From: Escherichia coli | GTDB taxonomy: Bacteria > Pseudomonadota > Gammaproteobacteria > Enterobacterales > Enterobacteriaceae | Direction: 5' to 3' (one strand) | Assembly: GCF_024298765.1 (NCBI RefSeq) | Contig: NZ_CP101210.1 | DNA length: 64,000 nucleotides | Shown here: one piece after another, positions 8,980-9,007 of the stretch | Layout of the letters: every line of letters begins with the position of its first letter | Numbering within the stretch: the stretch's first letter is position 1 | Notes under the pieces: generated by a model | Seen by the model: only the letters and a program-made list of their open reading frames with translations | Told to the model about the DNA's origin: nothing | Databases searched by the model: none | Translations under genes and position numbers: made by a program

Positions 8980-9007
8980 TCAGATTCGTTTTATAGCGCG
9001 AAGTTCC
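8980..9007 (-). promoter_or_regulatory. Sigma-E-type promoter of degP
   Basis: On the minus strand: GGAACTT, 16-nt spacer, TCTGA, about 45 nt upstream of the degP ATG. This matches the sigma-E -35/-10 consensus. GTAAA-like CpxR half-sites lie further upstream (9025-9052). Confidence 0.6.

What the first reader, a model, noticed from the sequence alone, without database searches (positions are those of the whole stretch)
8980..9007. Textbook sigma-E promoter in front of degP
GGAACTT, 16 nt, TCTGA on the minus strand upstream of degP, with GTAAA-type CpxR half-sites nearby. It shows that regulatory motifs in this window can be read directly from sequence and fixes the degP start.
Basis: partly seen in the sequence, partly recalled or inferred. 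Interest (0 to 1): 0.2.

Follow-up and report, generated by a model that had tools for sequence, protein, structure and literature searches.

The report
Known sigma-E promoter of degP
This is the long-known envelope-stress (sigma-E) promoter in front of the E. coli periplasmic protease gene degP; the motif is real, sits where published transcript starts say it should, and is ordinary textbook biology.

Summary
GGAACTT (9007-9001), 16 nt, TCTGA (8984-8980) lies on the minus strand, 46 nt upstream of the ATG (8934) of a 474-aa DegP gene. It occurs once in the window and in 0 of 100 shuffles. The window is E. coli. Published genome-wide transcript-start maps for K-12 put a degP start at 180,844, which is window 8974. 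That is 5 nt downstream of TCTGA, as the sigma-E promoter model predicts, and sigma-E ChIP signal covers the site. Across 76 distinct Enterobacteriaceae upstream regions the -35 and -10 are about 96-97% conserved, against 55% at four-fold-degenerate sites. The spacing is 16 nt in 72 of 76.

Three nuances apply:
- Only one CpxR box is convincing: GTAAAGACGAACAAT (9053-9039), a good first half-site and a degenerate second one.
- A second, overlapping start at 8981 matches the start giving the 47-nt 5' UTR in Salmonella. The conserved TATAAA in the sigma-E spacer probably drives it.
- The 40-nt leader from 8974 is the Rfam HtrA fourU RNA thermometer.

The ORF itself and homology fix the degP start codon; the promoter is only consistent with it. 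Already known; low interest.

The parts
9001..9007 (-). -35 element GGAACTT of the sigma-E-dependent degP promoter (positions -33..-27 relative to +1 at 8974)
   Evidence: It is a 7/7 match to the consensus of Rhodius 2006. Mean identity is 0.97 across 76 orthologous sequences; the variants seen are GGAACTA (12) and TGAACTT (6).
8985..9000 (-). 16-nt spacer CGCGCTATAAAACGAA. It differs from K-12 (CAGGCTATAAAACGAA) at 8999 and 8998.
   Evidence: One search gives the K-12 difference. The 16-nt spacing is kept in 72 of 76 orthologues, and 4 have 17 nt. The CGCG allele is in 4,028 and the CAGG allele in 1,388 of 5,426 complete E. coli genomes.
8980..8984 (-). -10 element TCTGA (positions -10..-6)
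   Evidence: It matches 3/5 of the modern consensus TCAAA, with the TC conserved. Mean identity is 0.96; TCTGA occurs in 65 of 76, TCTTA in 7, TCTCA in 3 and TCTAT in 1.
8974..8974 (-). Transcription start (+1, A) of the sigma-E promoter, giving a 40-nt 5' UTR
   Evidence: K-12 TSS 180,844 appears in Kim 2012 supplement and Cho 2014 supplement. The coordinate mapping is window = 189,818 minus the K-12 coordinate. The Rfam HtrA thermometer model begins exactly at this base.
8929..8974 (-). degP 5' UTR, the HtrA fourU RNA thermometer (Rfam RF02700). Its UUUU tract pairs with the Shine-Dalgarno region.
   Evidence: cmscan scores 77 bits against a gathering score of 52, E = 5e-17, over the full-length model 1-46. 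The Salmonella homologue has been characterised by SHAPE (PMC5602114).
7510..8934 (-). degP (htrA) coding sequence, 474 aa
   Evidence: ORF list. NF008189 DegP scores 935 bits over residues 1-474. The start is identical to the K-12 annotation b0161.
9039..9053 (-). Proximal CpxR box GTAAAGACGAACAAT (positions -79..-65, centre -72)
   Evidence: It is listed as the known CpxR site 'degP1' in Table S1 of PMC9600279. TTGTAAAGA has identity 0.99 and ACAAT 0.91 across 76 orthologues, against 0.55 at neutral sites.
9029..9038 (-). Conserved AAATTTTTAC block (positions -64..-55). It contains an inverted GTAAA on the + strand at 9029-9033 and an A-tract/T-tract of the kind typical of a distal UP subsite.
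   Evidence: Mean identity is 0.96. Rhodius 2006 and 2012 describe A/T-rich UP sequences at about -57/-58, with an A-tract followed by a T-tract. Its role, CpxR binding versus alpha-CTD contact, is inferred and not resolved here.
8981..8981 (-). Second 5' end (G of TCTGA), giving a 47-nt UTR. It is the equivalent of the Salmonella start that gives a 47-nt 5' UTR (probably the one named htrAp2).
   Evidence: Cho 2014 reports a TSS at 180,837 with 28 reads. K. pneumoniae has a TSS at the homologous G with 25 reads. Salmonella has starts giving 40-nt, 47-nt and 215/449-nt UTRs.
8990..8995 (-). TATAAA inside the sigma-E spacer, the candidate -10 hexamer of the overlapping constitutive promoter that starts at 8981
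   Evidence: Mean identity is 0.92, higher than the rest of the spacer. No -35 match was found and no consensus sigma-70 promoter was called. The assignment is an inference.
9189..9203 (-). Distal CpxR box GTAAATTACCGTCAG inside the 3' end of dgt (positions -229..-215)
   Evidence: It matches GTAAA-N5-GTAAA with 2 mismatches. It is listed as known site 'degP2'. It is not conserved: mean identity is 0.56, close to the neutral level.
9064..10581 (-). dgt (dGTPase), the upstream co-oriented gene. Its stop codon lies 57 nt upstream of the -35, with no terminator between.
   Evidence: NF003429 scores 893 bits. No terminator-like site was found in 8800-9200.

Best explanation
The motif is the core of the classical sigma-E (RpoE, sigma-24) dependent promoter of degP/htrA, called htrAp3 in Salmonella.

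Mechanism, from established knowledge. Envelope stress, such as unfolded outer-membrane proteins, triggers DegS/RseP cleavage of RseA and frees sigma-E. Sigma-E region 4 binds GGAACTT. Region 2 recognises the -10 and flips out its conserved C (the C of TCTGA, 8983).

Shown here or in published maps. Transcription starts at A 8974 and produces a 40-nt leader that is the fourU HtrA RNA thermometer, followed by degP. Phosphorylated CpxR bound upstream adds a second, Cpx-dependent input. The proximal box is GTAAAGACGAACAAT at -79..-65, centred at -72.

Inferred. The box centre at -72 is a class-I-like position. A weaker constitutive promoter overlaps the sigma-E promoter and starts 7 nt upstream, at 8981. 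Its -10 is probably the TATAAA in the spacer.
For: - Sequence: there is an exact GGAACTT-16-TCTGA match, unique in the window and absent from 100 shuffles.
- Geometry: the layout fits the sigma-E model, with a 16-nt spacer, a 5-nt discriminator and 26 nt from the -35 to +1. The model range is 25-28 nt, mostly 26/27 (PMC1312014).
- Mapped starts: K-12 degP TSS 180,844 equals window 8974, with a 40-nt UTR (PMC3415461 supplement; PMC3923258 supplement).
- In vivo sigma occupancy: the ChIP call at this promoter is 'SE' (sigma-S and sigma-E, no sigma-70), and the binding-plus-motif assignment is 'E'.
- History: htrA/degP was the second gene shown to be transcribed by RpoE (review PMC8103513).
[quoted passage not shown] A cpxR knock-out lowers degP by log2 -2.2 to -2.5 (PMC7657598). 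NlpE overproduction gives 32-fold induction, falling to 6.4-fold in a cpxR deletion (PMC9600279).
- Phylogenetic footprint across 76 distinct Enterobacteriaceae sequences: -35 0.97, -10 0.96 and CpxR box 0.91-0.99, against 0.55 at 195 four-fold-degenerate degP sites. Spacing is 16 nt in 72 of 76.
- RNA family: the Rfam HtrA thermometer hit starts exactly at 8974.
- E. coli population: the element is present in 5,423 of 5,426 complete genomes.
Against: - The -10 matches only 3 of 5 positions of the current TCAAA consensus.
- The TSS read counts are low (13-28 reads), and a second 5' end inside the -10 (8981) is at least as abundant in the same data sets.
- The ChIP data also show sigma-S at the site.
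- Sigma-E dependence of the 8974 start was not tested here and rests on the literature. The primary mapping papers (Lipinska et al. 1988; Erickson and Gross 1989) could not be retrieved and are cited from my own knowledge.
- The window's strain carries a CGCG spacer rather than the K-12 CAGG spacer on which the experiments were done. CGCG is nevertheless the majority E. coli allele and the one seen in the Escherichia, Salmonella and several Citrobacter loci.
Confidence: 0.96

Rival explanations
1. The main promoter at this spot is not the sigma-E one. Instead it is the overlapping constitutive promoter (sigma-70 or sigma-S) that starts at 8981 and uses the conserved TATAAA (8995-8990) as its -10. 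On this reading CpxR acts through that promoter, and the sigma-E motif contributes only under severe stress.
For: - The 5' end at K-12 180,837 (window 8981) has 28 reads against 20 for 180,844.
- In K. pneumoniae the homologous start has 25 reads against 11.
- Salmonella has a mapped start giving a 47-nt UTR, first reported as constitutive and low-level.
- TATAAA is conserved at 0.92, more than a sigma-E spacer would need.
- Sigma-S ChIP signal is present at the site.
- A 6.4-fold NlpE induction of degP persists in a cpxR deletion, and Cpx induction is large. This shows separable inputs.
Against: - There is no recognisable -35, and no sigma-70-type promoter is called in 8800-9200.
- No sigma-70 ChIP signal was recorded.
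- TATAAA is lost in several genera that keep the sigma-E elements, including Leclercia, Silvania and Buttiauxella.
Confidence: 0.03
2. The motif is a chance match. On this reading degP is expressed by read-through from dgt, or from a promoter inside dgt.
For: - No terminator lies between dgt and degP.
- Salmonella has long-UTR htrA transcripts (215 or 449 nt) that begin inside dgt.
- A conserved TATTAT at 9162-9157 sits at the right distance for a 215-nt-UTR start.
- The relaxed sigma-E pattern occurs at chance frequency.
Against: - The exact 12-base match appears in 0 of 100 shuffles.
- Mapped starts lie 5 nt downstream of the -10.
- No E. coli TSS was reported between 179,338 and 180,837.
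- Both hexamers and their spacing are strongly conserved in an otherwise diverged intergenic region.
Confidence: 0.01

Closest known systems
E. coli K-12 degP (htrA) sigma-E promoter (degPp; Lipinska et al. 1988 and Erickson and Gross 1989 from own knowledge; Rhodius et al. 2006, PMC1312014)
   Same: It is the same locus (dgt-degP), with the same -35, -10, 16-nt spacing, discriminator, +1 and 5' UTR. Over the 201 nt compared there are only two differences.
   Different: Two adjacent spacer bases differ: CGCG here against CAGG in K-12 (window 8999, 8998). CGCG is the majority E. coli allele (4,028 against 1,388 genomes). It is also the state in the Escherichia, Salmonella and several Citrobacter loci, so the K-12 allele is probably the derived one.
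rpoH P3, the other founding sigma-E promoter
   Same: From my own knowledge, it has the same historical consensus GAACTT-N16-TCTGA, and it serves as the pure sigma-E reporter. It is used that way in PMC2215328.
   Different: rpoH P3 has no CpxR input, whereas degP is co-regulated by CpxR. rpoH P3 lies outside this window and was not compared here.
Salmonella Typhimurium htrA promoter region (htrAp1/p2/p3; Lewis et al. 2009, as summarised in PMC5602114)
   Same: The 40-nt-UTR stress-induced start and the 47-nt-UTR start 7 nt upstream both have E. coli counterparts, at 8974 and 8981. The leader is the same fourU thermometer.
   Different: No upstream start within dgt is reported for E. coli in the data read here. 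E. coli also has C instead of U at 8942, which gives an A·C mismatch in the lower thermometer stem.
CpxR recognition box GTAAA-N5-GTAAA (De Wulf et al. 2002, as cited in PMC8831704 and PMC9600279)
   Same: The first half-site is a perfect GTAAA, the linker is 5 nt, and the box lies upstream of the core promoter. It is listed among 41 known CpxR sites.
   Different: The second half-site, ACAAT, matches only 2 of 5 positions, so the box fails a search allowing 2 or fewer mismatches. Its PSSM score is low, 7.8 compared with 12.7 for the distal box.

Membership tests
Sigma-E (RpoE/sigma-24, ECF) dependent promoter | -35 element GGAACTT | tested here: met
   It matches 7/7 at 9007-9001. The consensus comes from PMC1312014.
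Sigma-E (RpoE/sigma-24, ECF) dependent promoter | -10 element TCAAA-like, with the conserved C that is flipped out on melting | tested here: met
   TCTGA at 8984-8980 matches 3/5, and the TC and the final A are kept. TCT is near-invariant in 76 orthologues. The requirement for the C is described in PMC8103513.
Sigma-E (RpoE/sigma-24, ECF) dependent promoter | Spacer of 15-19 nt (16 preferred), discriminator of 5/6 nt, and 25-28 nt from -35 to +1 | tested here: met
   The spacer is 16 nt, the discriminator is 5 nt (AGAAC), and 26 nt separate GGAACTT from +1 at 8974.
Sigma-E (RpoE/sigma-24, ECF) dependent promoter | A transcript 5' end mapped at the predicted +1 | tested here: met
   Published TSS 180,844 equals window 8974 in two data sets from one laboratory. 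These were measured in K-12, which has an identical core promoter.
Sigma-E (RpoE/sigma-24, ECF) dependent promoter | Sigma-E holoenzyme occupancy in vivo | tested here: met
   The ChIP call 'SE' and the binding-plus-motif call 'E' are given for both degP TSS rows (PMC3923258 supplement 7). This is a literature look-up.
Sigma-E (RpoE/sigma-24, ECF) dependent promoter | Transcription from this start depends on rpoE (genetic test or in vitro transcription) | not testable with these tools
   This rests on the literature. htrA is described as the second known RpoE-transcribed gene, and degP belongs to the core sigma-E regulon.
CpxR-activated promoter (GTAAA-N5-GTAAA box) | Tandem direct repeat of GTAAA pentamers spaced by 5 nt | tested here: inconclusive
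   GTAAAGACGAACAAT has 3 mismatches, all in the second half, so no hit with 2 or fewer mismatches occurs in the intergenic region. It is nevertheless listed as known site degP1 and is 0.91-0.99 conserved.
CpxR-activated promoter (GTAAA-N5-GTAAA box) | Expression depends on CpxR | not testable with these tools
   From the literature, a cpxR knock-out lowers degP by log2 -2.2 to -2.5. The cpxA24 allele raises it 26.6-fold and pNlpE raises it 32-fold.
HtrA 5' UTR fourU RNA thermometer (Rfam RF02700) | Match to the covariance model at or above the gathering score | tested here: met
   The score is 77 bits against 52, over model positions 1-46 of 46, at 8974-8929.
HtrA 5' UTR fourU RNA thermometer (Rfam RF02700) | [quoted passage not shown] | not testable with these tools
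   This has been shown for Salmonella by SHAPE and reporter assays. The E. coli leader folds weakly here (MFE -3 kcal/mol, z = +1.0) and has an A·C mismatch in the lower stem.

The most novel reading that the evidence does not exclude
The near-invariant TATAAA inside the sigma-E spacer may be the -10 of a second, overlapping, sigma-E-independent promoter, not incidental spacer sequence. That promoter would start at 8981 and give a 47-nt UTR. It appears to be conserved from E. coli to Klebsiella and Salmonella. It could be the route by which CpxR raises degP without sigma-E. If so, two holoenzymes would compete for one 30-bp stretch, and the common CGCG/CAGG spacer polymorphism could shift the balance between them. 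The start is already mapped in Salmonella, so only the -10 assignment, the holoenzyme and the CpxR link would be new.
Probability: 0.4. Interest if true: 0.25.

Novelty: already known. Interest (0 to 1): 0.07.

Why it matters
It matters little for discovery. This is one of the two promoters on which the sigma-E consensus was originally defined, and every element found here (sigma-E core, CpxR box, fourU leader, alternative starts) is already in the literature.

Its value is as a calibration point. It shows that a sequence-only reader can locate a real alternative-sigma promoter to the base in this window. It also anchors the degP 5' end at 8974.

The only mildly open points concern the overlapping start at 8981. 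They are which holoenzyme uses it, and whether the widespread two-base spacer polymorphism has any effect.

Tried and rejected
- Primary papers: I tried to retrieve the primary mapping and footprint papers (Lipinska 1988 by PubMed id; Price and Raivio 2009). They are not held. Rhodius 2006 and 2012 have no supplements held, so the degP row of their promoter tables could not be read.
- Text searches for the promoter or CpxR-box sequence found only a knock-out primer.
- The supplement of the in vitro run-off (ROSE) paper has no degP entry.
- A search for papers on a sigma-70 degP promoter found nothing useful.
- A consensus sigma-70 promoter and terminator scan of 8800-9200 found nothing. I therefore rejected a canonical sigma-70 promoter and a dgt terminator.
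- I considered the second relaxed sigma-E-like match at 28704-28731 (+) and set it aside as chance-level.
- I considered the distal CpxR box inside dgt as part of a conserved architecture and rejected that. Its conservation is at the neutral level.
- The 5' UTR fold alone gave no signal (z = +1.0). Only the Rfam covariance model identified it.

Full report
**What is in the sequence**

The minus strand reads 5'-...TTGTAAAGACGAACAATAAATTTTTACCTTTTGCAGAAACTTTAGTTC GGAACTT CGCGCTATAAAACGAA TCTGA AGAAC A CAGCAATTTTGCGTTATCTGTTAATCGAGACTGAAATAC ATG-3'.
- GGAACTT occupies 9007-9001, the spacer is 16 nt (9000-8985), and TCTGA occupies 8984-8980.
- The ATG at 8934 opens a 474-aa ORF, 7510-8934.
- The exact pattern GGAACTT-N16-TCTGA occurs once in the 64-kb window and in none of 100 dinucleotide-preserving shuffles.
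- A loosened pattern (GAACTT-N15-17-TCNNA) is at chance level, with 2 found against 1.26 expected. The weight therefore lies in the full match and its position.

**Context**

- The ORF is DegP: NCBIfam equivalog NF008189, 935 bits against a cut-off of 720, over residues 1-474.
- The upstream co-oriented ORF (9064-10581) is the dGTPase Dgt, and the downstream ORF is CdaR.
- The 301 nt around the motif are at least 99% identical in 5,423 of 5,426 complete E. coli genomes, which annotate dgt and degP there.
- K-12 MG1655 annotates degP at 180,884-182,308, the same ATG. Window position therefore equals 189,818 minus the K-12 coordinate.
- Over 201 nt the window differs from K-12 at only two adjacent spacer bases, CGCG against CAGG.
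- Searches with 40-mers show the CGCG allele in 4,028 genomes and the K-12 allele in 1,388.
- CGCG is also the state in the Escherichia, Salmonella and several Citrobacter loci. The K-12 allele is therefore probably the derived one.

**Fit to the sigma-E promoter model**

Rhodius et al. 2006 (PMC1312014) derived the model from 28 mapped starts:
- the -35 is GGAACTT and the -10 is TCAAA;
- spacing is 15-19 nt, with 16 strongly preferred;
- the discriminator is 5/6 nt;
- the -35 to +1 distance is 25-28 nt, mostly 26/27.

The window has a 7/7 match in the -35, the optimal spacer, and TCTGA (3/5, keeping the TC and the final A). The model predicts +1 at 8974 or 8973. TCTGA is the original consensus drawn from rpoH P3 and htrA (my own knowledge: Erickson and Gross 1989). 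'Textbook' is therefore fair historically, but the element is not a perfect match to today's matrix.

- Kim et al. 2012 (PMC3415461, supplement) list the K-12 degP TSS at 180,844 with a 40-nt UTR. Their promoter string ends ...GGAACTTCAGGCTATAAAACGAATCTGAAGAACA. That position is window 8974, an A 5 nt after TCTGA, exactly as predicted.
- Cho et al. 2014 (PMC3923258, supplement 7) list TSSs at 180,837 (28 reads) and 180,844 (20 reads). The sigma-factor ChIP binding is 'SE' (sigma-S and sigma-E, notably no sigma-70). The combined binding-plus-motif assignment is 'E'.
- The transcription start is therefore adjacent to the motif, not far from it.
- A review states that htrA/degP was the second gene shown to be transcribed by RpoE. 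It also states that RpoE needs the C of the -10, which is flipped into a pocket during melting (PMC8103513).

**Conservation**

I fetched 80 orthologous degP loci from different Enterobacteriaceae species. I aligned the 150 nt upstream of the start codon for 76 distinct sequences. Mean identity to the window base was as follows.

| Segment | Mean identity |
|---|---|
| GGAACTT (-35) | 0.97 |
| TCTGA (-10) | 0.96 |
| 21 nt between the A/T block and the -35 | 0.64 |
| 8 nt after the dgt stop | 0.40 |
| 195 four-fold-degenerate degP sites (neutral baseline) | 0.55 |

Only 4.6% of the four-fold-degenerate sites reach 0.95. The hexamer spacing is 16 nt in 72 sequences and 17 nt in 4. Variants are mild: GGAACTA, TGAACTT, TCTTA, TCTCA and TCTAT. 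This evidence is independent of the literature, and it shows that both elements and their spacing are under selection.

**CpxR**

The chance of two in 56 nt is about 0.01-0.025.
- No GTAAA-N5-GTAAA with 2 or fewer mismatches lies in the intergenic region.
- Table S1 of PMC9600279 lists two 'known' degP sites. The first is GTAAAGACGAACAAT (9053-9039; -79..-65, centre -72). The second is GTAAATTACCGTCAG (9203-9189, inside dgt).
- The proximal box is almost invariant: TTGTAAAGA 0.99 and ACAAT 0.91. So is the following AAATTTTTAC, at 0.96.
- The distal box is at the neutral level, 0.56.
- The A-tract/T-tract at -64..-55 also resembles the distal UP subsite described for sigma-E promoters. I cannot separate a CpxR role from an alpha-CTD role here.

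Functional dependence on CpxR comes from the literature:
- A cpxR knock-out lowers degP by log2 -2.2 to -2.5.
- cpxA24 raises degP 26.6-fold and NlpE overproduction raises it 32-fold. A 6.4-fold rise remains without CpxR.

**What else is there**

*Second start.*
- The 5' end at 180,837 is window 8981, the G of TCTGA. It gives a 47-nt UTR.
- K. pneumoniae has a start at the homologous G.
- In Salmonella three htrA starts are documented, giving 40-nt, 47-nt and 215/449-nt UTRs. The 40-nt start was initially seen only under stress, and the 47-nt start was reported as constitutive and low-level (PMC5602114, citing Lewis 2009, Kroger 2013 and Srikumar 2015).
- The E. coli pair 8974/8981 therefore reproduces the two short-UTR Salmonella starts. 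PMC5602114 names the 40-nt one htrAp3 and the 215-nt one htrAp1; I infer that the 47-nt one is htrAp2.
- The spacer's TATAAA (8995-8990; identity 0.92) is the obvious candidate -10 for the 8981 start.
- No -35 and no consensus sigma-70 promoter are detectable, so this remains an inference.

*Leader.*
- Rfam RF02700 (HtrA 5' UTR thermometer) matches 8974-8929 at 77 bits against a gathering score of 52, over the full model.
- The model's first base is the mapped +1, an independent corroboration of the 5' end.
- The leader folds weakly, as expected for a thermometer.
- E. coli has C at 8942 where most relatives have T, which puts an A·C mismatch in the lower stem.

**The claim that the motif 'fixes the degP start'**

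The promoter and +1 require the start codon to lie downstream of 8974, and ATG 8934 is the first one. However, 8934 is already the first start codon after the upstream in-frame stop. The protein also aligns end to end with the DegP profile. The promoter is therefore consistent with the start rather than needed to fix it.

**Verdict**

- Observation: confirmed.
- Interpretation: supported.
- Novelty: the element is the already-known sigma-E/CpxR-controlled degP promoter, followed by its known thermometer leader and overlapped by a second known start.
- Interest: low.
- Remaining open points: which holoenzyme uses the 8981 start, whether CpxR acts through it, and whether the common CGCG/CAGG spacer polymorphism matters.
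- Limits: sigma-E and CpxR dependence were not tested here, the TSS data come from K-12 and from one laboratory, and the primary S1-mapping and footprint papers could not be read.

Noticed in passing
window 8981 (minus strand); candidate -10 TATAAA at 8990-8995: A second published 5' end (K-12 180,837, 28 reads) falls on the G of the sigma-E -10, 7 nt upstream of the sigma-E start. K. pneumoniae has a start at the homologous base, and Salmonella has a mapped start giving a 47-nt UTR. The conserved TATAAA in the sigma-E spacer is the likely -10 of this overlapping promoter. Its holoenzyme is not established here.
   Followed up: partly
window 8929-8974 (minus strand): The degP leader matches the Rfam HtrA fourU RNA thermometer (RF02700, 77 bits) beginning exactly at the sigma-E +1. 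Escherichia has C at 8942 where most Enterobacteriaceae have T. This creates an A·C mismatch in the lower stem opposite the Shine-Dalgarno region, so the E. coli hairpin may be weaker than the Salmonella one.
   Followed up: partly
window 8998-8999 (sigma-E spacer): There is a two-base polymorphism in the promoter spacer. CGCG (this window) is in 4,028 and CAGG (K-12) in 1,388 of 5,426 complete E. coli genomes. The Escherichia, Salmonella and several Citrobacter loci carry CGCG, so the laboratory K-12 allele looks derived. Any effect on promoter strength is unknown.
   Followed up: partly
window 9157-9162 and about 9149 (minus strand, inside dgt): TATTAT lies 7-8 nt upstream of the position that would give a 215-nt degP UTR, like Salmonella htrAp1. 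It is 0.95 conserved, including its two third-codon positions (0.95 and 0.88, against a third-position mean of 0.50). No E. coli TSS was reported there in the data set read.
   Followed up: partly
window 9189-9203 (minus strand, inside dgt): The distal 'known' CpxR box GTAAATTACCGTCAG is the better consensus match (2 mismatches). However, it is not conserved among Enterobacteriaceae (0.56, the neutral level), unlike the weaker-matching proximal box (0.91-0.99).
   Followed up: yes
window 28704-28731 (plus strand): This is the only other relaxed sigma-E-like match in the window: GAACTTTCTGCTGAAGGCATGGCTCTTA. It maps near K-12 161,087-161,114 on the dksA side, about 9 nt upstream of a reported TSS at 161,078 that was assigned to sigma-70 and sigma-S. 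It is at chance frequency for the pattern and was not examined further.
   Followed up: no
orthologous loci, e.g. L070, L077, L078 (Klebsiella), L044 (Kluyvera); aligned to window 8975-8979: Many genera carry a roughly 7-nt insertion (such as TAGTCAC) between TCTGA and the conserved ACACAGCAA block. Their sigma-E +1 must then fall within the insertion, and their leaders are longer than the 40 nt seen in E. coli and Salmonella. The ACACAGCAA block is conserved regardless.
   Followed up: no
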